Shown here: positions 49,468 through 57,757 of the stretch, in pieces
How the letters are laid out: every line of letters begins with the position of its first letter
Numbering within the stretch: the stretch's first letter is position 1
DNA from: a virus
Direction: 5' to 3' (one strand)
DNA: 64,000 nucleotides
Virus record (IMG/VR): IMGVR_UViG_3300037262_000003
Coordinates: 46,054 to 110,053 of that record
The notes under the pieces: model-generated
What the model was told of the DNA's origin: nothing
Database searches by the model: none
The model's input: only the letters and a program-made list of their open reading frames with translations
Position numbers and translations under genes: made by a program

Positions 49468-49541
49468 CGTTGCCTCCTAGAGATGAGTATGGCCCGGCAG
49501 AGGATACCTCACTACACGTGAGCAGAGCATACCGGGCCAGG

Positions 49542-49612
49542 CTTCGGAACAGGGACTCGAACCCCAATGAGCAGACTCAGATTCTGCCATCCTGCCATTA
49601 GATGATTCCGAA
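49542..49612 (-). tRNA. tRNA-Gln(CTG)
   Basis: Hand-folded cloverleaf; loop ATCTGAG. Confidence 0.85.
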
Positions 49613-49613
49613 G

Positions 49614-49684
49614 TGCCCCCATGAGGATTTGAACCCCAATACGACGGGTAAAAACCGCCTGTCCTACCGTTGAACGATACGGGC
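49614..49684 (-). tRNA. tRNA-Lys(TTT)
   Basis: Loop TTTTTAC; A73. Confidence 0.8.
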
Positions 49685-49689
49685 ATATG

Positions 49690-49761
49690 TTTCGGGACAA
49701 AAGACTCGGACTTCAATCCTCGGCTTCAAAAGCCGGTGTCCTGCCATTAGACGATCCCGAA
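49690..49761 (-). tRNA. tRNA-Gln(TTG)
   Basis: Loop TTTTGAA; weak T arm. Confidence 0.7.
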
Positions 49762-49786
49762 ATATAAGTCTAATATATCAGACCGG

Positions 49787-49858
49787 TACCCCCCCAGGGA
49801 ATCGAACCCTGATTCACTGGGTAAGAGCCAGCTACTCTAGCCGTTGAGTTAGAGAGGT
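49787..49858 (-). tRNA. tRNA-Lys(CTT)
   Basis: Loop CTCTTAC. Confidence 0.85.
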
Positions 49859-49927
49859 ATATAGTGCCGGAATTTTGGGTTCCCTGGCGCTAGAGGTAAC
49901 TAGCGCCCCGACACATGGGGGATCTCG

Positions 49928-49999
49928 CACTCTCGACCGGACTCGAACCGGTGTCTTCCGCTTAGGGGGCGGTAGATCTATCCACTGACCTACGAGAGT
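49928..49999 (-). tRNA. tRNA-Arg(CCT)
   Basis: Loop CCCCTAA (C33). Confidence 0.8.
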
Positions 50000-50005
50000 G
50001 ATTCC

Positions 50006-50034
50006 ATGTTACTACGAAAATCTAGACCTGTCAA
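50006..50034 (-). promoter_or_regulatory. Promoter for a tRNA block
   Basis: TTGACA-N17-TAACAT. Confidence 0.7.
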
Positions 50035-50795
50035 CCCAACGTCCCGAATGTGATGGTGTCTCCACCCCAATCGAAGTTCTGGATCTGCACGTCCTGTCCC
50101 TGTGTTGGAGCCACGATCATGTCCTGGCCTCCCAGGAAGATACCTACGTGGTACACGTACGAAGCAGGATCGCTGTCATCGTGGAAGAACACCAAGTCGC
50201 CCGGACGGGCTTCGCTCTGGGGAATCATCTTGAAGAAGTTGAACTGATCGTCAGCTATTCTCGGCACTGTTGACCCTGCCTGCGCGTAAGCCCACTGTAC
50301 TAGGCCCGAACAGTCAAAGTCAACCCCTGGATCTTCGCCTCCGTAGACGTAGGGTACTCCTATCTGGCTCTCCGCGTACTGGACCACCTTCTGCCCGAGT
50401 GACCCTGAGGTCACTGTGTGAGTGGGCGTTGAACTGGGCGTCGGAGTAGGAGAGGGAGTGGATCGAAGTGTGAAAGTAGGGACAGGGGGCGCTATGACGG
50501 CAGCAGAGGTAGTGTCCGTAGTGACCTTGGCCACTGTTGCTACCTTCTTCTTGACTGCGATCTCAGTCACGATACGCCGAGGGTACATCTGCCACTGCGA
50601 AGGAATGTGGACAGGGGGTACTGCCTTGATCGGGGCAGTATTATGGATCGGCTCTGGATTAAGCTGCATGAGATCTGCCGTAGTGGCAGAATGGGGCATA
50701 GACGATCCTGACAGAAGAACGGCTGTCATTGCCGTTGCGGGCAATGCGACAGCCGTGAACTTCTTGATGATGTTAGGCTTACGGTGCTTTCCCAT
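50031..50795 (-). CDS. Secreted NlpC/P60 peptidoglycan endopeptidase
   Basis: GVPYVYGG...FDCSGLV...PGDLVFF...HVGIF; N-terminal signal/TM. Confidence 0.9.
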   Translation of the reverse strand: MGKHRKPNIIKKFTAVALPATAMTAVLLSGSSMPHSATTADLMQLNPEPIHNTAPIKAVPPVHIPSQWQMYPRRIVTEIAVKKKVATVAKVTTDTTSAAVIAPPVPTFTLRSTPSPTPTPSSTPTHTVTSGSLGQKVVQYAESQIGVPYVYGGEDPGVDFDCSGLVQWAYAQAGSTVPRIADDQFNFFKMIPQSEARPGDLVFFHDDSDPASYVYHVGIFLGGQDMIVAPTQGQDVQIQNFDWGGDTITFGTLG

Positions 50796-50842
50796 ACTTC
50801 AAGGTAACATAACGGAGACGTTACCACAACCCTCCAGGTCAT

Positions 50843-50946
50843 TGGGGCAGCAGCCCGGACATGAACCGGGACCTATCTCTTCACAAGTCGTGCTCTATCC
50901 CGACAGCCCCGACCGGTACCGGGCTGACTGTTTACACCACTGCTGC
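50843..50946 (-). ncRNA. Aberrant tRNA-His-like RNA
   Basis: Perfect acceptor and T stems, C73-CCA, TTGTGAA loop; hairpin inserted in the D-loop; unpaired anticodon stem. Confidence 0.6.
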
Positions 50947-50949
50947 AAG

Positions 50950-51021
50950 AGCCAAGTCAGAGAATCGGACTCTGGACCTCATCCGTACCAAGGATGTGTT
51001 CTACCACTGAACTAACAAGGC
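50950..51021 (-). tRNA. tRNA-Thr(GGT)
   Basis: Loop TTGGTAC. Confidence 0.8.
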
Positions 51022-51114
51022 ATTGCCCGGACCTGCTCCATCCTCAGCCTACTTCTGCGTGGCAGGCTAATCTATTTGGATGGTCGGTATCCAGGGTTGG
51101 GGTATACACCAACG

Positions 51115-51185
51115 AGCCCCACCGAGGGATCGAACCCCGATTTACTCCGTACGAAGGAGTCGTTCTGCCATTTAACTAGCAGGGC
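51115..51185 (-). tRNA. tRNA-Thr(CGT)
   Basis: Loop TTCGTAC. Confidence 0.85.
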
Positions 51186-51307
51186 ATTTTAGTAGTCGCG
51201 CCCGTTTCTCCTCGGGCTCTCCTGTGACATCCGTTCATCCTGGCCTAGGAGTCGGTACAACCCACAGTCGGCATCTTGTCCTGCGCGCCAGACTTCTGCC
51301 GCGACCG

Positions 51308-51376
51308 TAGAGCGCCAGAGAGTCGAACTCTGTCATTGGGCTTAGAAGGCCCGAGCGGGCATCCGTCCCGCGCTCC
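51308..51376 (-). tRNA. tRNA-Arg(TCT)
   Basis: Loop CTTCTAA; short D arm. Confidence 0.75.
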
Positions 51377-51392
51377 ATATTTAGTTTACTTG

Positions 51393-51464
51393 AGCCTCTT
51401 GCAGGAATCGAACCCGCGTCACTTTCTTACAAGGGAAGCATACTCGCCATTGTACTAAAGAGGC
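51393..51464 (-). tRNA. tRNA-Thr(TGT)
   Basis: Loop CTTGTAA. Confidence 0.85.
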
Positions 51465-51559
51465 ATAAAAGCCCGTCTCTTCCTCTGGTCCCTACTCCGC
51501 AAATTCTGCTGTGTTCCCCACAGTCATATCGGATCTAAGGAGGGCATCCAGTCCTTGCG

Positions 51560-51630
51560 TACCCAATGAAGGTAATGCTCCCTCGTCCTCGCCTTGTAAG
51601 GGCGTTGCTCTCCTTTTGAGCTAATCGGGC
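51560..51630 (-). tRNA. tRNA-Val(TAC)
   Basis: Loop CTTACAA; T-loop AGCATTA. Confidence 0.75.
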
Positions 51631-51681
51631 ATACGTGCCTTAACGTCGGCACCAGACGGGCGTAAGTGGAGTCGCCACCCG

Positions 51682-51756
51682 TACACCGTCAAGGAATTGA
51701 ACCTTGCTTAAACTAAGTTATCAGCTTAGCTCTCACAACCAGTGAGACTACAGTGC
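51682..51756 (-). tRNA. tRNA-Ile(GAT)
   Basis: Loop CTGATAA. Confidence 0.75.
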
Positions 51757-51757
51757 G

Positions 51758-51830
51758 TGGAGAAGGTCGGACTCGAACCGACAGCCGTCTGCTTGCAAAG
51801 CAGTTGCTCTACCATTGGAGCTACATCCCC
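51758..51830 (-). tRNA. tRNA-Ala(TGC)
   Basis: Loop TTTGCAA; G3:U70. Confidence 0.9.
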
Positions 51831-51987
51831 ATAATGAGCGGTCCACTTACTCCACCATAGCAGTGTAAAGATTGGGCGTCATAACCACTCAAGCGTGCTG
51901 GTGTGCTGGTGTGCTGCCAGTTACAGCACAGCAAGTTATTGCCCGCAGGCTCACTCACTGGCGGGGTTCGAACCCTCACCACCAACG

Positions 51988-52058
51988 TAGCCCACGCCGG
52001 TTACGATCCGGCCTCAAGAGATTGAAAGTCTCCCGTTCTGCCACTAAACTAGTGGGCC
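51988..52058 (-). tRNA. tRNA-Glu(TTC)
   Basis: Loop CTTTCAA. Confidence 0.8.
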
Positions 52059-52117
52059 AAGATACTTCGTTAGGTTCTTTAGTCTAGCATGTGGTGAAAG
52101 ACGAGTCAAACTACTTG

Positions 52118-52190
52118 CGCTCGCGACGGGATTCGAACCCGCCCTAGCACCTTGACAGGGTGCCGTGCTTACCGCTGACACTACGCGTGC
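52118..52190 (-). tRNA. tRNA-Asp(GTC)
   Basis: Loop CTGTCAA. Confidence 0.85.
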
Positions 52191-52272
52191 ATGATCCCAG
52201 TTTTTAACGTGGGTGAGGCCACGTGTGAGGATATCCTCACATCCATGTGGATGTGAGGATATTATCACAAGC

Positions 52273-52347
52273 CTATCGACGGTAGTAGCCTACGCCGCCG
52301 CCAAGTAGCAGGACAATGAGAACGACTACGATGATAATCAGTAGCAT
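52273..52347 (-). CDS. 24-aa single-TM micropeptide
   Basis: AAAGGAG RBS; MLLIIIVVVLIVLLLGGGVGYYRR. Confidence 0.65.
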   Translation of the reverse strand: MLLIIIVVVLIVLLLGGGVGYYRR

Positions 52348-52380
52348 GGTATCTCCTTTCGTCCTTATCACCGTACCACG

Positions 52381-52453
52381 TATCAGTAACGGGGATCGAA
52401 CCCGTAGCCTCCTGGTTGAGAGCCAGGTGATCTGCCAATTGATCTATACCGAC
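52381..52453 (-). tRNA. tRNA-Glu(CTC)
   Basis: Loop CTCTCAA. Confidence 0.85.
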
Positions 52454-52454
52454 G

Positions 52455-52526
52455 TGGTTCCCAGAGGGATCGAACCTCTGCGCTCCGGGCTTCAACCGGG
52501 TGCTCTACCAACTGAGCTAGAGAACC
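52455..52526 (-). tRNA. tRNA-Phe(GAA)
   Basis: Loop TTGAAGC. Confidence 0.85.
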
Positions 52527-52567
52527 ATAAGAATGGGCTTTTAACGTCATCACCCGAGGACGAGTTG

Positions 52568-52638
52568 AGTCCCACGCGGGGTTCGAACCCACGCTAGCAC
52601 CTTGGCAAGGTACTGTGCTACCACTACACCAGTAGGAC
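52568..52638 (-). tRNA. tRNA-Gly(GCC)
   Basis: Loop TTGCCAA. Confidence 0.85.
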
Positions 52639-52749
52639 ACCGTGCTCCCAGTTTAAGTCAGGAAGCCATGACTGTCAAGACCGTGCTGTTCTTGCTTTTT
52701 ACGGATGACAGAACAGCAAACACTTTCGTCCCACCAAGTGTGTTGGGAG

Positions 52750-52820
52750 AGCCTCATGCCGGTACTGCCCCGGCTCTGAATGCTTGGAAGGCACTCGTGC
52801 AACTTTCACACCCATAAGGC
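52750..52820 (-). tRNA. tRNA-Gly(TCC)
   Basis: Loop CTTCCAA; T-loop GGCAGTA. Confidence 0.75.
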
Positions 52821-52858
52821 ACCGTGGCGTTTTAAAGACTCGCCATGTCTGCTTTACG

Positions 52859-52932
52859 TAGCGGAAGCGAGATTCGAACTCGCGTCGTGCGGCTTATGAG
52901 GCCGGGCTGGGTCCTCTCCAGTCCATTCCGCT
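52859..52932 (-). tRNA. tRNA-Met(CAT)
   Basis: Loop CTCATAA. Confidence 0.8.
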
Positions 52933-52970
52933 ATGAATAAATCTATCACACTGTCGTAGTGTTTGTCAAG

Positions 52971-53042
52971 TCGGCTCGGTGGGGATCGAACCCACTTAAC
53001 TACCTTATAAGAGTAGCGCCTTAACCAGTAGACGACGAGCCA
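52971..53042 (-). tRNA. tRNA-Ile(TAT)
   Basis: Loop CTTATAA. Confidence 0.8.
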
Positions 53043-53043
53043 G

Positions 53044-53124
53044 AGGAAGGATGACGAGTCGAACGCCATGGTTACCCACGTTTCGCTTTCAAGGCGATCT
53101 CAGGCCCGGCCTGATTAACCTTCC
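53044..53124 (-). tRNA. tRNA-Ser(TGA)
   Basis: Loop CTTGAAA; long variable arm. Confidence 0.75.
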
Positions 53125-53125
53125 G

Positions 53126-53194
53126 AGCACAGTATGAGAATCGGACTCATCTTCGTAGGTTTGCAATCTACGCCCATCCCAGATGGAACCATGC
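53126..53194 (-). tRNA. tRNA-Cys(GCA)
   Basis: Loop TTGCAAA; U73. Confidence 0.75.
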
Positions 53195-53249
53195 AAGCCG
53201 GTCCAAGCTTCCGCTGTAGAGGAATTTCCTCAGACTGCCTGGACCCGAG

Positions 53250-53332
53250 CGGAGAGCTGAGGGCACGATCCCCAACGCCGAGACGCCGCGCTCGTTAGCA
53301 GCGAGGCCCGTTCCCTGAACGGTTAACTCTCC
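53250..53332 (-). tRNA. tRNA-Ser(GCT)
   Basis: Loop CTGCTAA; long variable arm; G73. Confidence 0.8.
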
Positions 53333-53347
53333 ATGTACAGTGTAGCT

Positions 53348-53428
53348 TTACTTCTCAAGACACCAGTCTGCGTGGCACGTCGTAGGACGCCCGCAGTAAT
53401 GGCACACTAGGTTCCTCAATATCCTCAT
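53348..53428 (-). CDS. Leaderless 26-aa Cys/His micropeptide
   Basis: TTGACA-N17-TATTCT-N6-ATG; CHYC...CHADWC. Confidence 0.55.
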   Translation of the reverse strand: MRILRNLVCHYCGRPTTCHADWCLEK

Positions 53429-53459
53429 GAAACGAGAATAACACTGAGTTTCTAGAATG

Positions 53460-53630
53460 TCAACCCTCGACCCCAGGCCCGCGAGTCTCAGACCACTCCA
53501 GCCCGCAGTGGTAGCACTTCCAGAAGTCAGTGTGCCACGGGCGACCCTGACGATCACGACCGTTGGCTGTGCCTGTCTTGTGGGGATCTATGTGATTCCC
53601 GCCTCTGCACTTCGGCTTCGCTCTAGGCAT
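53460..53630 (-). CDS. Zinc-finger-like microprotein
   Basis: AAGGAG RBS; C....H...CYHCG. Confidence 0.55.
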   Translation of the reverse strand: MPRAKPKCRGGNHIDPHKTGTANGRDRQGRPWHTDFWKCYHCGLEWSETRGPGVEG

Positions 53631-53642
53631 TATGACTCCTTG

Positions 53643-53725
53643 TACGCCAGGTGGGGCTCGAACCCACACGTCCCTAGGACATCGCCTTTTGAGGACGACG
53701 CGTCTACCAATTTCACCACTAGCGC
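53643..53725 (-). tRNA. tRNA-Leu(CAA)
   Basis: Loop CTCAAAA; long variable arm. Confidence 0.9.
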
Positions 53726-53793
53726 ATGGTCTGCCGTTGCCTATCGGAGCATATAGCCCGTAAGTGGGCCAATCTAGCAGGACGTACCTTGCG

Positions 53794-53865
53794 TCGGGAC
53801 TCTGGGAGTCGAACCCAGTTTCTCCTAGATCCGAACTAGGCAGATTACCGTCTTCCTCAATCCCG
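53794..53865 (-). tRNA. tRNA-Pro(CGG)
   Basis: Loop TTCGGAT. Confidence 0.85.
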
Positions 53866-53873
53866 TTAACTCA

Positions 53874-53970
53874 ACGACCTGCTGGGACTCGAACCCAGTC
53901 CTGCCGCCCTTTTTCACGAGGAACCACCCTCGCTACTCGGGGCCGCTGTGCGCCCATACACTGCTGGTCT
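53874..53970 (-). ncRNA. tRNA-like RNA with expanded anticodon arm
   Basis: D and T arms intact; about 34-nt loop containing the hairpin CGAGG/CCTCG. Confidence 0.55.
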
Positions 53971-54004
53971 CATGAACGTGCTGGTTAGGCTGTCCATGTG
54001 AGCG

Positions 54005-54076
54005 TCAAGCGCCTTGGAGTCGAACCAAGTTTCTCCTGTTTCCAAAACAGGCAGATTACCGTCTTCCTCGCGCCTG
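54005..54076 (-). tRNA. tRNA-Pro(TGG)
   Basis: Loop TTTGGAA. Confidence 0.85.
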
Positions 54077-54086
54077 ATGTCAAGCG

Positions 54087-54157
54087 TACACCCGAGAGGA
54101 TTCGAACCTCCAACTCGTGGTTCGTAGCCACGTGGTTATCCCTTAGCCTACAGGTGC
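54087..54157 (-). tRNA. tRNA-Arg(ACG)
   Basis: Loop CTACGAA. Confidence 0.85.
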
Positions 54158-54191
54158 ATAACGGACGAGTTTAAAGAGTTCCCGACTCTTG

Positions 54192-54263
54192 CTCTCCCGC
54201 CTGGGTACGATCCAAGACGAGCAGATTAACGGTCTGCCATGCTGCCAATTACATCACAGGAGA
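54192..54263 (-). tRNA. tRNA-Asn(GTT)
   Basis: Loop CCGTTAA (C33). Confidence 0.8.
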
Positions 54264-54336
54264 ATGCTTGACCTGGACTCGAAGATCCAGTATACTTACC
54301 TTGTTTCGAAGGTTAACTACAAAACTAGGATATCAC

Positions 54337-54834
54337 ATGAACATCGATTGTCAATACTGCGGAACTACCTTTAGCGCAGACTGGGCTGGAAGAAAGTACT
54401 GCTCCAAGTCATGCTCTGCCAAGGTCAATAACACTCTATATCCGAAGAGGGTCTCTGTCAAGCAATACTGCCTGATGTGCGGCGAAGAATTCACTTCTAT
54501 TGGCCAAAGCAGGCAGAAGTGCCCAGCATGTATCTCAGCTACGAAGAGCGCTGAGTACATATGGAAGGTAACAATGGGTGAGTATAAGAATGGCTTCTCT
54601 CGTGCCGCTCAAGCGTACAACTCAGCACGTACTATATCTCGAAGGATCTACGAGAAGTCTGACCGCCCGAAGTCTTGCTTGATCTGTAGATATGCCAAGC
54701 ATTATGAAGTCTGCCATATCGAGGATCTTCAGCACGTTCCAGATGACAAGATTCTTGGTTTGGCATTGAGCCATCAGAATATCGTGGCACTATGCCCCAA
54801 CCATCATTGGGAATTTGACAAGGGACTTCTATAA
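54337..54834 (+). CDS. HNH endonuclease with Zn-finger repeats, inserted antisense in the tRNA array
   Basis: CQYCG..KYCSKSC; EVCHI...NIVALCPNHHWEFD; own promoter TTGACC-N17-TATACT at 54268. Confidence 0.85.
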   Translation: MNIDCQYCGTTFSADWAGRKYCSKSCSAKVNNTLYPKRVSVKQYCLMCGEEFTSIGQSRQKCPACISATKSAEYIWKVTMGEYKNGFSRAAQAYNSARTISRRIYEKSDRPKSCLICRYAKHYEVCHIEDLQHVPDDKILGLALSHQNIVALCPNHHWEFDKGLL

Positions 54835-54970: not shown

Positions 54971-57757
54971 TTATCTGATCGGGCAAGCCCCTGACGCACA
55001 TTCCTCTGAGATACTATCACTCGTCCTAGTTGCTTCTGCCACTTGGTAGGCGGCCTCAGAGATCCTGGTGTAGGGTGCCTGATCTCTGGTGGCATCTACC
55101 ATGATAGTTGTTCCCTTGAGCTTTGGCAAGTACGCCCGAAGTATACCGTCCAAGGCTTCTGGTGTCACTGTTCCCTCAGGCACGTTAGCTGTGTAGGATA
55201 TAGCGTTATCCGCCCAGTGCTTCTGGTAGAACGCCTGTAGCTCAAGCATGTCTTCGATTGAGACCTGCTCGGCAGACTCAACCAGATCTACATCCAGCCC
55301 GAGGGCTCGCACCTGAGACACTAGCAGATTCTCAGTAGGAAAGCAAACCACAGCAGTCATGCCCGACTCATCGTAGACATCAGTCTCGACCTTGAATCCC
55401 TGCTGCTGGAATGCCTGGACCTGCTCGAACTCCCTGTCGTCCCTCAACGAGAAACGTACCCTCTGGATGAACCAGCGGGCGTAGATCGCCTGGATACCCT
55501 CGCTCACACCTGGAAGCTTCGACACCGAACCCGTGGGAGCCACCGTAGTGACCTTGACGGGAGCCGGAATGCGAAGCTCGACGGCGTAATCGTTAGCTTC
55601 CTGACGTACGGTGTGATAGAGATGTCGCAGTAGTCCCTGAGGGCTCACGATGCCGTTATCACGCTGCTTGGCGATCTCACTGTACTTCAACTCGTACGCC
55701 TTGGCGAAAAAGCCCTGGACACCCATGTGCCCGACACCGATACGACGGTTCCTGTCCTGAATGACCTTCTGCTTGGGATCTGTGATGTCCCCGAAGGTGC
55801 TACGTACCAGGAAGCGCGTAACCAGGCGATGAGCCTCAAGCAGGAGCTGAGGATCGAAGCCACAGGCTACTTCCTTGTTCACGAACCAGTCTAGGTTAAC
55901 GTGGCCTAGATTGCAAGCCTCCCAAGCCTCTAGCGGGATCTCGCCGCAGTTAGCCGACATGACGCCCGACATGTGCCCTGCAATGGGTTCCGGGTCAAGC
56001 ACGATGTATGCGTGGCTGTCATCCACAGTACCGTTGTACACATCTGCACGACCTGCGGGCTCTACCGACACGACCTTGTGATTCGGTGAGTGCCCGTCCA
56101 TTCCATTTTGCTGACGCAGAGGCATGTCATAACGCCTGTGACCAAGTTCGGTCATTAGCGCTAGATTATCCATACCATTGTTAGTGCCGTCACCGTCTAT
56201 GTGCGCTACGTTGATTCCATCAGGAAGCTCAGTGCCCAGGAAGTTCTCCCAGAGCATACGGTGTGTCCACTGGTGGTTGGCAGCATTCCTGTCGCTATCC
56301 CACCCGTGAATCCTCTCGTGCCCGCTGGAATCTCTGCTAGCAGAGAACGCCCGAATCGACTGACCCTCGCGAAGATGCTGCGCCTGTACCTTCTCCCCAC
56401 GGAATGAGAAGAAGTTATGGTCCGGAGTACAACGCACTTCTAGACCACTGTCGAACGTGACCTTCAGAATTTCTGTGTTCTTTCGGGTCAGTCGTGGCTG
56501 ACGCATCCACCTAACGACGGGCTTCTTAGTCTTTGGATGCCAGGAGTAGACCTGAACATCTTCTCCGACCTCTGCTAGATCCTTAAAAGTTCTTGGACCA
56601 TCGATGGTAGCGATAACAGTATCGCCAGTCAAGCATGGGTTCGTTGCGATGATCGTACCAGGCTCACCCTCGTTTGACAAGTCTGAGTTCCAGTAGCCCG
56701 GCTCACCGTTCTTGAGCACGGCCTCGCAGACCGCCTTGTGGACCTGACGTGCCCAGGCTACATTACCAGTCTGATCATCAAGAGCAGCAAGGAACTCGTT
56801 GTCAATCTCGACTGAGATGTTGGTGGTCCAAAACTTGGAGCCATCCGCCTTGGCGTTGATGAAGTCTATGATGTATGGGTCGTCCCAGTGGCACATGCTC
56901 ATGCGAGCTGAACGACGCTTGCCGCCAGCGATGGCCCCGACCGAGATGACATGATCCATCTCCATAATATCGACTGGGGAGAAATGACCCACTGACCATG
57001 CACGGTTCAGGACGCTCACAATATCGTGAAGCATCTTAGCCAACGGGGCAGGACCGGAAGCCACACCGCCTGATGACACAAGAGGGGAACCCTCGGGGCG
57101 AATCTTGGACAGATCCAAGAATATCGAGACCGGGCGATCCGCCTTACCGTAAATGCTCATGGCCTCATCGATAACATGTGACAGAGCTACAGCCCATCCC
57201 TCACGAGTGTCTTCCACGAGACAAACACCATCGGAGTAGTGACGGGCAGCGTGAGCGACTTCCTTGTCGAATACGTCAGAAGAAGCCAGATACTCGCGCA
57301 TCTTCTCGTAATCAGTATGAGTCTCATCCGCAGCGAGGATCAGGTTGATCGGGTGCTTGGGATATCCGTAGTGCTCGAAGAGTCTGGTGCTGTAATTAGC
57401 CCCGACACCGCCGCCTTCCACCAGTCGCATGAACGTGAATGCGAAGTGGTCGGAGAACTTCTGGCCCCAGCCACTCACGTGACAGTTGAACAGGAACTGA
57501 CGGCCCTCGACACCACTCGCCCATAGCTGACGACCCGCAGGGAGAATGGCCATATTGCCCATGTAGTAGTTGAGGCTGTCGTACTCCTTCCAGACCTCCT
57601 TGCTCCACGTGCTCTGGTGACCATACACGAGTGAGAGGTTTCCACGTGCAACACGGGCAACGGTCTCGGGCCAAGTCTCGTAATTACCGTCTGGCTTGAC
57701 ACGTGAGTACGTCCGCCTGTACACAGCCTCACCAGTGGGGCCAAATGGGGTTGCCAA
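54971..57757 (-). CDS. nrdJ: Class II (adenosylcobalamin-dependent) ribonucleotide reductase, intein-containing
   Basis: RTYSR..ETW, PAGRQLW, FNC, RRSA, TNP[intein]CGEI, CNLG, APTG, C-terminal CASGACP. Confidence 0.92.
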   Translation of the reverse strand: MATPFGPTGEAVYRRTYSRVKPDGNYETWPETVARVARGNLSLVYGHQSTWSKEVWKEYDSLNYYMGNMAILPAGRQLWASGVEGRQFLFNCHVSGWGQKFSDHFAFTFMRLVEGGGVGANYSTRLFEHYGYPKHPINLILAADETHTDYEKMREYLASSDVFDKEVAHAARHYSDGVCLVEDTREGWAVALSHVIDEAMSIYGKADRPVSIFLDLSKIRPEGSPLVSSGGVASGPAPLAKMLHDIVSVLNRAWSVGHFSPVDIMEMDHVISVGAIAGGKRRSARMSMCHWDDPYIIDFINAKADGSKFWTTNISVEIDNEFLAALDDQTGNVAWARQVHKAVCEAVLKNGEPGYWNSDLSNEGEPGTIIATNPCLTGDTVIATIDGPRTFKDLAEVGEDVQVYSWHPKTKKPVVRWMRQPRLTRKNTEILKVTFDSGLEVRCTPDHNFFSFRGEKVQAQHLREGQSIRAFSASRDSSGHERIHGWDSDRNAANHQWTHRMLWENFLGTELPDGINVAHIDGDGTNNGMDNLALMTELGHRRYDMPLRQQNGMDGHSPNHKVVSVEPAGRADVYNGTVDDSHAYIVLDPEPIAGHMSGVMSANCGEIPLEAWEACNLGHVNLDWFVNKEVACGFDPQLLLEAHRLVTRFLVRSTFGDITDPKQKVIQDRNRRIGVGHMGVQGFFAKAYELKYSEIAKQRDNGIVSPQGLLRHLYHTVRQEANDYAVELRIPAPVKVTTVAPTGSVSKLPGVSEGIQAIYARWFIQRVRFSLRDDREFEQVQAFQQQGFKVETDVYDESGMTAVVCFPTENLLVSQVRALGLDVDLVESAEQVSIEDMLELQAFYQKHWADNAISYTANVPEGTVTPEALDGILRAYLPKLKGTTIMVDATRDQAPYTRISEAAYQVAEATRTSDSISEECASGACPIR
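55949..56635 (-). mobile_element. Intein (229 aa) with internal HNH endonuclease
   Basis: CLTGDT start, CTPDH block B, VYNGTV block F, ends SAN|C; HR..W...HIDGDGTNN..NL. Confidence 0.9.

What the first reader, a model, noticed from the sequence alone, without database searches (positions are those of the whole stretch)
49860..54190. Repeated mini H-type pseudoknots with a UUAA(A) linker just 5' of tRNAs
On the minus strand, each of these ends a few nt before a tRNA: CGTC-TGGTGCC-GACG-TTAA-GGCAC (51658-51635), CGTGG-CCTCAC-CCACG-TTAAAAAC-TGGG (52223), CGTC-CTCGGGTGAT-GACG-TTAAAA-GCCC (52562), AGAC-ATGGCGA-GTCT-TTAAAA-CGCCA (52850) and AAGAG-TCGGGAA-CTCTT-TAAA-CTCG (54190). A larger variant lies at 49865-49925. 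Sequences differ while pairing is kept, which implies selection on structure. Possible roles are processing signals, exonuclease blocks, or released small RNAs (cf. pseudoknot antitoxins of type III toxin-antitoxin systems).
Basis: partly seen in the sequence, partly recalled or inferred. Interest (0 to 1): 0.7.

Follow-up and report, generated by a model that had tools for sequence, protein, structure and literature searches.

The report
Pseudoknot caps before phage tRNAs
Six tiny knotted RNA folds sit 4-8 bases in front of tRNA genes in this soil phage. Similar folds recur in other phages of actinobacteria, so they look like an undescribed standard part of phage tRNA precursors, probably shielding the RNA end until the tRNA is cut out.

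Summary
All five listed elements are at the stated minus-strand coordinates, and I found a sixth (52673-52644). Each has the same layout: a 4-6 bp hairpin, a U+A-rich linker, then 4-6 nt that pair with the hairpin loop (H-type pseudoknot). Each ends 4-8 nt before a tRNA or tRNA-like 5' end. Shuffled spacers give 0.055 such elements against 6 observed (0 of 1000 shuffles reach 6).

The closest relative keeps two of them at the same positions with both stems changed compensatorily. In 160 long tRNA leaders from relatives and unrelated actinophages, strong pseudoknots end 0-11 nt before the tRNA 23 times against 2.7 expected.

Peat metatranscriptome contigs from three studies suggest that one leader exists as a discrete 36-nt RNA. 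It runs from 1 nt before the knot to the predicted RNase P site.

In one Streptomyces phage family the knot starts at the transcription start. It therefore belongs to the tRNA leader and does not cap an upstream RNA.

My best reading is a 5'-leader cap that blocks 5'-end-dependent decay and leaves a short landing pad for RNase P. This function is inferred. There is no support for a toxin-antitoxin link. The "larger variant" is an ordinary nested structure.

This scan noted similar pseudoknots before tRNAs in other phages. I found no published description.

The parts
51635..51658 (-). E1 pseudoknot. S1 is 51658-51655 with 51647-51644; S2 is 51652-51648 with 51639-51635; linker L3 is 51643-51640. 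It ends 4 nt before tRNA-Val(UAC).
   Evidence: The ortholog in relative G001 has an identical 22-nt upstream flank, but one S1 pair is swapped (U-A to A-U) and S2 is entirely different, 7 bp instead of 5.
52196..52224 (-). E2 pseudoknot. S1 is 6 bp, S2 is 4 bp with one G-U, and L3 is 7 nt. It ends 5 nt before tRNA-Asp(GUC).
   Evidence: RNA contigs of two runs cover E2 plus tRNA-Asp as one uncut piece, 52065-52386.
52535..52562 (-). E3 pseudoknot, the weakest of the six. S1 is 4 bp and S2 is 4 bp with one G-U. It starts 5 nt after tRNA-Gly(GCC) and ends 8 nt before tRNA-Phe.
   Evidence: A competing hairpin appears in the nested minimum-energy fold.
52644..52673 (-). S1 is 5 bp, S2 is 6 bp with one G-U, and L3 doubles as a -10 hexamer. 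It ends 5 nt before tRNA-Gly(GCC).
52650..52678 (-). Consensus sigma-70-type promoter overlapping E6. The -35 lies directly 5' of S1 and the -10 is L3.
   Evidence: 10 of 12 matches, 17-nt spacer.
52639..52674 (-). Discrete 36-nt leader RNA containing E6. Its 5' end is 1 nt before S1 and its 3' end is position -1 of tRNA-Gly (the RNase P site).
   Evidence: Contigs of three peat metatranscriptome runs from three studies join tRNA 3' ends carrying untemplated CC or CCA to 52674/52675. One contig joins 52639 to +1 of tRNA-Lys(CUU).
52825..52850 (-). E4 pseudoknot. S1 is 4 bp, S2 is 5 bp, and L3 is 6 nt. It starts 8 nt after tRNA-Met and ends 4 nt before a tRNA-Gly(UCC)-like gene.
   Evidence: G001 has a counterpart after its tRNA-Met with different stems.
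52751..52820 (-). Non-canonical tRNA-Gly(UCC)-like cloverleaf downstream of E4. It has a 7-bp acceptor stem, a UCC anticodon loop and an atypical T loop.
   Evidence: Fold. Not called by ARAGORN at default settings or by Rfam at E<=1.
54166..54190 (-). E5 pseudoknot. S1 is 5-6 bp, S2 is 4 bp with one G-U. It starts directly after the encoded 3' end of tRNA-Asn and ends 8 nt before tRNA-Arg(ACG).
   Evidence: tRNA-Arg(ACG) of relative G003 also has a leader pseudoknot with unrelated sequence.
49864..49914 (-). It is a nested structure (7-bp closing helix, inner 8-bp hairpin, A-rich 3' internal loop) ending 5 nt before tRNA-Lys(CUU). It is not a pseudoknot.
   Evidence: z = -3.3. The G001 ortholog keeps a closing helix with changed sequence (by inspection).
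51560..51630 (-). tRNA-Val(UAC) downstream of E1.
   Evidence: Rfam RF00005 at 46.7 bits. ARAGORN finds it only at a lowered threshold.

Best explanation
The elements are real RNA structures. They are compact H-type pseudoknots with a U+A-rich third loop, and they form in the 5' leader of phage pre-tRNAs.

Each knot folds almost the whole spacer and leaves only 4-8 single-stranded nucleotides before the tRNA. These usually end in A-U.

Proposed mechanism (inferred): the knot sits at or within a few nucleotides of the RNA's 5' end. That end is made either by transcription initiation or by the cut that releases the upstream tRNA's 3' end. There the knot acts as a 5'-terminal stabiliser. It denies 5'-end-dependent nucleases of the actinobacterial host (RNase J exonuclease, RNase E) a single-stranded entry. 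It also keeps the spacer from mispairing with the tRNA. RNase P still has a short free landing pad.

RNase P then cuts at +1 and releases the knot as an RNA of roughly 30-37 nt.

Shown here: the structure class, its anchoring to tRNA 5' ends, its spread among actinophages, and hints of one discrete leader RNA. Inferred: which nuclease is blocked, and whether the released RNA does anything.
For: Enrichment and anchoring:
- 6 elements against 0.055 expected in shuffled spacers.
- In 149 leaders of this phage group, pseudoknots with at least 10 stem pairs number 15 against 2.8 +/- 1.5. Those with an A-rich loop 3 and at least 9 pairs number 14 against 1.6 +/- 1.2.
- Their 3' ends fall 0-11 nt before +1 in 23 cases against 2.7 expected, and are near background further upstream.

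Conservation with changed sequence:
- E1 and E4 have counterparts in G001.
- Leaders of the same tRNA species (Val-UAC, Arg-ACG, Pro-UGG, Ala-UGC) carry knots in several diverged relatives.

Same class in unrelated actinophages:
- Muntaha has 5 of 16 leaders against 0.25 expected. Catera has 3 of 17 leaders against 0.68 expected, at least 9 stem pairs and any third loop. LukeCage also has them.

Position at the RNA 5' end:
- In ten LukeCage-family phages a conserved promoter places the expected start about 0-2 nt before S1. The stems are invariant and loop 3 varies from 4 to 13 nt.
- In the window, E5 starts directly at the upstream tRNA's encoded 3' end, E3 starts 5 nt after it and E4 8 nt after it. 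The 22 nt before E1 form a helix that starts 1 nt after the tRNA end.

RNA hints:
- The 36-nt E6 leader RNA has 1 unpaired nt at its 5' end and its 3' end at the RNase P site. It is joined to tRNAs bearing untemplated CC(A), so it came from RNA, not DNA.

RNase P context:
- Position -1 is U in 18 of 24 tRNA genes and -2 is A in 20 of 24.
- The last paired base lies 3-8 nt before +1 in 84 of 144 leaders against 55 in shuffles.

Established knowledge: 5'-terminal stem-loops within a few nt of the 5' end stabilise bacterial RNAs against RNase E and RNase J. Streptomyces and mycobacteria have both enzymes.
Against: - No experiment shows the fold or any protection.
- The RNA evidence rests on assembled contigs of metatranscriptomes, for one element only, and other spacer fragments also persist in those runs.
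- A contig covering E2 plus tRNA-Asp uncut shows that not every knot-bearing leader is processed quickly.
- E6 and several knots in other phages overlap consensus promoters, so RNA started there lacks the knot.
- Primary transcripts already carry a protective triphosphate, so a 5' cap there is less obviously needed.
- Second stems of 4 bp are individually weak.
- The host is inferred only from cultured relatives.
Confidence: 0.5

Rival explanations
1. A 3'-end cap for the upstream RNA, like the MALAT1 triple helix next to mascRNA. RNase P cuts at the tRNA, and the knot a few nt upstream then blocks 3'-to-5' exonucleases, stabilising whatever RNA lies upstream. Earlier notes of this scan favoured this reading for similar knots in other phages.
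For: The distance to the RNase P site is fixed. E2 follows a 24-codon ORF, and some Muntaha knots follow protein genes. Where the knot overlaps a promoter, only read-through RNA from upstream contains it.
Against: In the LukeCage family and at Muntaha tRNA-Gln the expected transcript starts at the knot, so nothing lies upstream to protect. E5, E3 and E4 follow a tRNA by 0-8 nt, and that tRNA's 3' end must be trimmed free, not protected. The E6 RNA has lost everything upstream of the knot.
Confidence: 0.15
2. The released knots are the functional product. They would be small stable RNAs acting in trans by shape, for example as decoys or sponges for a host RNase, an RNA-binding defence protein or a type III-like toxin.
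For: A discrete 36-nt leader RNA appears in three independent metatranscriptomes. Compact A-rich-loop knots are typically nuclease-resistant (established knowledge).
Against: Sequences differ freely between copies and phages, so any partner could read shape only. There are no tandem identical repeats, and no ToxN-family gene was found (control uninformative). Tight anchoring to the tRNA start is not needed for a free-standing RNA gene. Other spacer fragments persist too.
Confidence: 0.1
3. A folding insulator or RNase P helper only. The knot just keeps the spacer from pairing with tRNA sequence, or it contacts RNase P to speed cleavage. It has no role in nuclease protection.
For: All leader designs in the array give at most about 9 free nt before the tRNA: abutting tRNAs, promoters that start at the tRNA, hairpins and knots. 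The A-U at -2/-1 fits RNase P preferences.
Against: This does not explain why a knot with an A-rich third loop is so often preferred to a plain hairpin. It also does not explain why the knot so often lies right at an RNA 5' end.
Confidence: 0.15
4. The elements act at the DNA level as promoters, with the A/T-rich linker as the -10 box, and the pairings are incidental.
For: E6 coincides with a consensus promoter whose -10 is the linker. The same is seen at Muntaha tRNA-Lys and tRNA-Ala, LukeCage tRNA-Cys and GiJojo tRNA-Thr. The linker lies where a -10 would start transcription just before the tRNA.
Against: E1-E5 have no -35, and E1, E3 and E4 have no TANNNT hexamer (by inspection; the scan finds only E6). 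A promoter does not need two interlocked helices, yet these are enriched about 8-fold or more over shuffles. G-U pairs are strand-specific. Read-through RNA containing the E6 knot exists.
Confidence: 0.06

Closest known systems
5'-terminal stabiliser stem-loops of bacterial RNAs (E. coli ompA leader; B. subtilis ermC and aprE leaders). From my own knowledge.
   Same: A structure within a few nt of the RNA 5' end. In those cases it blocks 5'-end-dependent attack by RNase E or RNase J. Here the knot lies 0-8 nt from expected or observed 5' ends.
   Different: Those are plain hairpins on mRNAs. These are pseudoknots on pre-tRNA leaders that RNase P removes. Protection is not shown here.
MALAT1 / MEN-beta 3' end: triple-helical ENE plus A-rich tract directly upstream of the tRNA-like mascRNA, which RNase P cuts.
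   Same: A compact structure involving an A-rich strand lies a few nt upstream of an RNase P cleavage site at a tRNA-shaped RNA.
   Different: The ENE clamps the very 3' end of a long upstream RNA. Here the knot often has nothing upstream (transcription start or a tRNA end). The fold is an H-type knot with a 4-8 nt free tail.
Small H-type pseudoknots with an A-rich loop in the stem-1 minor groove: luteovirus frameshift knots, and the preQ1-I riboswitch aptamer (Rfam RF00522).
   Same: Size (24-30 nt), topology and loop lengths. The layout of 5-bp stem, then U + A-run, then short second stem mirrors preQ1-I.
   Different: There are no conserved loop nucleotides and no Rfam match at E<=10. The elements are not in a coding region and not in the 5' UTR of a queuosine gene.
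Type III toxin-antitoxin antitoxin RNAs (ToxI, CptI, TenpI).
   Same: Pseudoknotted RNAs of about 36 nt, released by endonucleolytic processing.
   Different: Those are tandem, nearly identical repeats next to a toxin endoribonuclease gene. Here the units differ in sequence, are scattered among tRNAs, and no toxin gene was found.
wcaG RNA motif (Rfam RF01761; Weinberg et al. 2010, PMC2864571). Earlier notes of this scan linked it to pseudoknots next to viral tRNAs.
   Same: A phage RNA built of small pseudoknot modules. According to those notes it often lies beside tRNA genes.
   Different: There is no cmscan match here. According to those notes, the pseudoknots sit just after tRNA 3' ends in giant viruses, and wcaG itself occurs in cyanophages. 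Here the constrained distance is to the downstream tRNA 5' end.
Pseudoknot substrates of bacterial RNase P (PMC12710915).
   Same: A small H-type pseudoknot can interact with RNase P.
   Different: Cleavage there needs a 3' RCCA tail and occurs inside loop 1. These knots have no such tail, and the cut is at the tRNA.

Membership tests
H-type pseudoknot with A-rich loop 3 (structural class) | Two interlocked helices, with the S2 3' strand pairing to the S1 hairpin loop | tested here: met
   All six elements. 6 observed against 0.055 in shuffles.
H-type pseudoknot with A-rich loop 3 (structural class) | Sterically allowed loops: L1 of 0-3 nt across S2, and L3 of at least 4 nt across S1 | tested here: met
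   L1 0-3, L2 0-3 and L3 4-7 nt for S1 of 4-6 bp. E5 is tight if its S1 is counted as 6 bp.
H-type pseudoknot with A-rich loop 3 (structural class) | Pairing kept through compensatory change | tested here: met
   E1 and E4 against G001. There are only two sequences per position, so no formal covariation statistic. The LukeCage family shows invariant stems and a variable loop.
Type III toxin-antitoxin antitoxin RNA | Tandem array of near-identical repeats of about 36 nt | tested here: not met
   The units differ in sequence and are separated by tRNAs.
Type III toxin-antitoxin antitoxin RNA | Adjacent toxin endoribonuclease gene (ToxN/AbiQ family) | tested here: inconclusive
   No PF13958 match in the 110-kb genome, but the control genomes gave no match either. 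Neighbouring ORFs show no such domain.
preQ1-I riboswitch (RF00522) | Match to the covariance model and its conserved loop nucleotides | tested here: not met
   No hit at E<=10 in 681 nt holding four elements.
wcaG RNA (RF01761) | Match to the covariance model | tested here: not met
   No hit at E<=1 over 7 kb or at E<=10 over 681 nt.
Sigma-70-type promoter | -35 and -10 hexamers 16-18 nt apart | tested here: not met
   Met only for E6. E1-E5 have no -35.
MALAT1-type RNase P-defined 3' end module | RNase P site a few nt downstream of the protective structure | tested here: met
   4-8 nt to tRNA +1. The 3' end of the E6 RNA is at -1.
MALAT1-type RNase P-defined 3' end module | The structure protects a long upstream RNA | tested here: not met
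   Knots at expected transcript starts or directly after tRNAs. The E6 RNA lacks upstream sequence.
5'-terminal stabiliser structure | Structure within a few unpaired nt of the RNA 5' end | tested here: met
   E6 RNA has 1 nt. E5 has 0 nt after the encoded tRNA end. The LukeCage-family start is about 0-2 nt before S1. E2 is an exception.
5'-terminal stabiliser structure | Measured increase in RNA half-life, or a block of RNase J or RNase E | not testable with these tools
   Needs infected cells or purified enzymes.

The most novel reading that the evidence does not exclude
Leader pseudoknots are a general phage device: a bacterial counterpart of viral exonuclease-resistant RNAs. They would stop RNase J or RNase E at a fixed point just upstream of each tRNA, letting phages run large tRNA arrays on a host decay machinery that would otherwise destroy the precursors. 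The released knots may in addition titrate that machinery.
Probability: 0.25. Interest if true: 0.8.

Novelty: new variant of a known kind. Interest (0 to 1): 0.64.

Why it matters
Phage tRNA arrays are common and are thought to help phages overcome codon-usage limits and tRNA-targeting defences. How their long multi-tRNA transcripts survive and are processed is largely unstudied.

A small, recurrent, position-locked pseudoknot in front of tRNAs would be a new standard part of these transcripts. It is absent from Rfam and from the papers I could search.

It can be tested directly in cultured Streptomyces and Mycobacterium phages that carry it. If it blocks RNase J or RNase E, it would be a compact natural RNA stabiliser, about 25-30 nt long, of use in actinobacterial genetics.

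It would also improve annotation. Spacers in phage tRNA arrays are not junk, and several "missing" tRNA-like genes become visible next to these knots.

Tried and rejected
- Close relatives for a formal covariation test. Megablast and blastn against phage records matched only tRNA bodies. Relatives of the ribonucleotide reductase have no tRNAs nearby. The NlpC/P60 protein inside the array has no relatives in IMG/VR. A conserved 22-nt flank found only G001 and one more phage, which lacks the E1 knot. The single metagenome scan returned only copies of G001.
- Rfam. Nothing but tRNAs at E<=1 over 7 kb or at E<=10 over 681 nt.
- Nested folding of single elements gave non-significant z-scores. This is uninformative for pseudoknots.
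- Promoter reading. Rejected for E1-E5 and kept for E6.
- ToxN search. No match, but the control was uninformative.
- RNA contigs gave no information on E1, E3, E4 and E5. Cover there was absent or not listed, which proves nothing.
- Arrays of a T5-like Providencia phage and a Caulobacter phage showed no enrichment. Only 20 and 7 leaders were available, so this is not evidence of absence.
- GiJojo and pSt2308, the nearest cultured relatives, lack the strict TTAA form. They do have a knot with a C+A-rich linker before tRNA-Ala.

Full report
**What the window is.** The window is the right-hand 64 kb of a complete 110-kb IMG/VR virus record. It encodes a tail sheath, baseplate, portal and terminase. 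Its terminase is about 55% identical to those of Streptomyces phages BRock, GiJojo, LuckySocke, Alone3 and pSt2308. The DNA occurs in peat and permafrost metagenomes. The host is therefore probably an actinobacterium; this is inferred from relatives only. The minus strand between 49540 and 54263 carries 24 ARAGORN tRNAs. It also carries tRNA-Val(UAC), found by Rfam, and several tRNA-like units.

**Check of the observation.** A mechanical scan found a sixth, E6, at 52673-52644 before tRNA-Gly(GCC).
- The common anatomy is S1 (4-6 bp), L1 (0-3 nt), S2 5' strand (4-6 nt), L2 (0-3 nt), S1 3' strand, L3 (4-7 nt, starting with U and then mostly A), and S2 3' strand.
- A free tail of 4-8 nt follows, up to the tRNA +1.
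- E1 precedes tRNA-Val(UAC).
- E4 precedes a cloverleaf with a UCC anticodon and an odd T loop that no program calls.
- The strict motif occurs 6 times in 3.2 kb of spacers, against 0.055 in 1000 dinucleotide shuffles (none reached 6).
- Outside tRNAs it occurs only twice in the rest of the genome on both strands.
- Only 7 TTAAA words exist on the minus strand of the whole window, and 4 of them belong to these elements.
- Four second stems contain G-U pairs, so the pairing is specific to the tRNA-sense strand.
- The "larger variant" (49864-49914) is a stable nested structure, not a knot.

**Relatives.** IMG/VR holds four large relatives with tRNA arrays, G001 and G003-G005.
- G001 is the closest (terminase 74% identical). 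The leader of its tRNA-Val has the same 22-nt upstream flank as E1. One S1 pair is swapped, and S2 is completely different and longer.
- A counterpart of E4 follows tRNA-Met in G001, again with different stems.
- A general scan of 149 tRNA leaders of this phage group found knots with at least 10 stem pairs in 15, against 2.8 +/- 1.5 in shuffles. Knots with an A-rich L3 and at least 9 pairs occurred in 14, against 1.6 +/- 1.2.
- Random genomic windows behave like the shuffles.
- The same tRNA species (Val-UAC, Arg-ACG, Pro-UGG, Ala-UGC) carry leader knots in several diverged relatives, with unrelated sequences.

**Other actinophages.** The class is not confined to this group.
- Streptomyces phage Muntaha has 5 of 16 leaders with such knots (0.25 expected).
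- Mycobacterium phage Catera has 3 of 17 (0.68 expected at the criterion of at least 9 stem pairs; only one of the three has an A-rich third loop).
- Streptomyces phage LukeCage has several.
- Over 160 leaders with at least 90 nt of upstream spacer, knots end 0-11 nt before +1 in 23 cases against 2.7 expected. Further upstream they are near background.
- More generally, the last base paired in the nested minimum-energy fold lies 3-8 nt before +1 in 84 of 144 leaders against 55 in shuffles. Pairing right up to the tRNA is depleted.
- A T5-like phage and a Caulobacter phage showed no enrichment, but the samples were small.

**Relation to promoters.** The array is full of consensus promoters, 13 found against 3.0 expected. 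Several start transcription at or within a few nt of a tRNA 5' end.
- E6 coincides with one: the -35 abuts S1 and L3 is the -10.
- The same overlap occurs at Muntaha tRNA-Lys and tRNA-Ala, LukeCage tRNA-Cys and GiJojo tRNA-Thr.
- E1-E5 have no -35, and E1, E3 and E4 have no acceptable -10, so the family as a whole is not a promoter.
- The overlap is best seen as dual use. An A/U-rich loop about 10 nt before the tRNA is where a -10 box must lie for a promoter that starts just before the tRNA.
- In ten phages of the LukeCage family, a conserved promoter lies immediately upstream of the tRNA-Glu(CUC) leader knot. The expected start is 0-2 nt before S1. Both stems are invariant, while L3 varies from 4 to 13 nt and stays A-rich. 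There the knot is the 5' end of a primary transcript.

**RNA evidence.** Four peat metatranscriptome runs, available only as assembled contigs, were laid on the array.
- Contigs from three runs of three studies join the 3' ends of tRNA-Met, tRNA-Ile(UAU) and tRNA-Pro(UGG) to position 52674/52675. This is one nt before S1 of E6.
- The tRNA genes encode only the discriminator plus one C. The junctions carry CC or CCA. The partners were therefore matured tRNAs, and the chimeras arose from RNA, not from DNA variants.
- One contig runs from the tRNA-Ile 3' part, through the E6 leader to 52639 (position -1 of tRNA-Gly), and then into +1 of tRNA-Lys(CUU).
- Together these suggest a discrete 36-nt leader RNA. 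Its 3' end is the RNase P site and its 5' end has one unpaired nt before the knot.
- No promoter fits a start at 52674, so this end comes from processing.
- Other recurrent RNA 5' ends lie right after tRNA 3' ends (51306, 50947, 52379), as expected for 3'-end endonuclease cuts.
- A 293-322-nt piece with E2 and tRNA-Asp still uncut is also present.
- Because these are contigs, all of this is a hint, not a mapping.

**Mechanism.** The distance to the downstream tRNA is fixed, while the distance to whatever lies upstream is not. The element therefore belongs to the leader of the downstream tRNA.
- The knot lies at or near an RNA 5' end in most cases. That end is the transcription start in the LukeCage family and at Muntaha tRNA-Gln.
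- It is the end left after release of the upstream tRNA for E5 (0 nt), E3 (5 nt) and E4 (8 nt).
- For E1, a helix occupies the 22 nt from 1 nt after tRNA-Ile.
- For E6 the observed 5' end is 1 nt away.
- This is the geometry of known 5'-terminal stabilisers, which block 5'-end-dependent RNase E and RNase J. Actinobacteria have both enzymes (established knowledge).
- The free 4-8 nt ending in A-U fits what bacterial RNase P needs.
- I therefore favour a leader cap that protects and insulates the precursor until RNase P removes it.
- The phage encodes its own CCA-adding enzyme, which fits its CCA-less tRNA genes.

**Rivals.**
- The MALAT1-like 3'-cap reading, proposed by earlier notes of this scan for similar knots in other phages, fits the fixed distance to the RNase P site. 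It fails where the knot starts the transcript or directly follows a tRNA.
- A trans-acting role for the released knots cannot be excluded. It is not needed to explain the anchoring.
- The toxin-antitoxin analogy has no support.
- Riboswitch families of the same shape do not match.

**Novelty.** Searches of the held literature for pseudoknots in tRNA leaders, phage tRNA clusters or actinophages found no description of such elements. The nearest paper shows that bacterial RNase P can cleave an artificial pseudoknot bearing a 3' RCCA tail (PMC12710915). This scan has noted pseudoknots 3-8 nt before tRNAs in a gut/rumen phage and a freshwater phage. It has also noted wcaG-type knots after tRNAs in giant viruses and cyanophages. 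The present case adds the actinophages, the promoter overlap, the transcript-start cases and the first RNA-level hint.

Noticed in passing
window 49540-54263, minus strand: All 24 tRNA genes end with the discriminator plus a single C and lack the remaining CA. Position -1 is U in 18 of 24 and -2 is A in 20 of 24. The phage encodes its own CCA-adding enzyme outside the window, at G000:C1:24243-24620 on the minus strand.
   Followed up: partly
window 52751-52820 (-); also 53045-53124 (-) and about 50841-50947 (-): tRNA-like units that standard tools miss or score poorly. One is a Gly(UCC)-like cloverleaf with an odd T loop. One is a weak tRNA-Sec-model hit. One is a 107-nt unit after tRNA-Thr(GGU) that appears as a head-to-tail joined RNA in a metatranscriptome.
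   Followed up: partly
window 51659-51680 (-): The 22-nt trailer after tRNA-Ile(GAU) is identical in three otherwise diverged phages (this one, G001 and G006). It forms a 6-bp helix that starts 1 nt after the tRNA end.
   Followed up: partly
window 50841-50947, 51194-51306, 52087-52379 (-): Metatranscriptome contigs show 'goes back' joints that link the 3' end of a spacer fragment to its own 5' end. The 5' ends lie right after tRNA 3' ends. These may be circular RNAs or template-switch products.
   Followed up: no
window 52940-52969, 50006-50034, 52081-52109, 53435-53463, 54327-54354 (-): Consensus TTGACA-N16-18-TAnnnT promoters lie inside the tRNA array. Two of them should start transcription at or within 1-2 nt of the tRNA 5' end, giving nearly leaderless tRNAs.
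   Followed up: partly
window about 52278-52350 (-), about 53348-53428 (-), and 53460-53669 (-): Small ORFs sit among the tRNAs: a 24-codon hydrophobic peptide, a 26-codon Cys-rich peptide behind its own promoter, and a 69-codon Cys/His-rich ORF. A perfect 15-bp inverted repeat lies between the first of these and E2.
   Followed up: no
window 54971-57757 (-): The class II ribonucleotide reductase gene is interrupted by an intein with an HNH endonuclease domain.
   Followed up: no
window 50031-50795 (-): An NlpC/P60 peptidase gene lies inside the tRNA array and has no detectable relatives in IMG/VR.
   Followed up: no
L006 10028-11614 (GiJojo); L033 359-1987 (LukeCage): Related and unrelated Streptomyces phages carry a Ro-like RNA-binding protein gene inside or beside their tRNA arrays. 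No such gene was seen next to this window's array.
   Followed up: no
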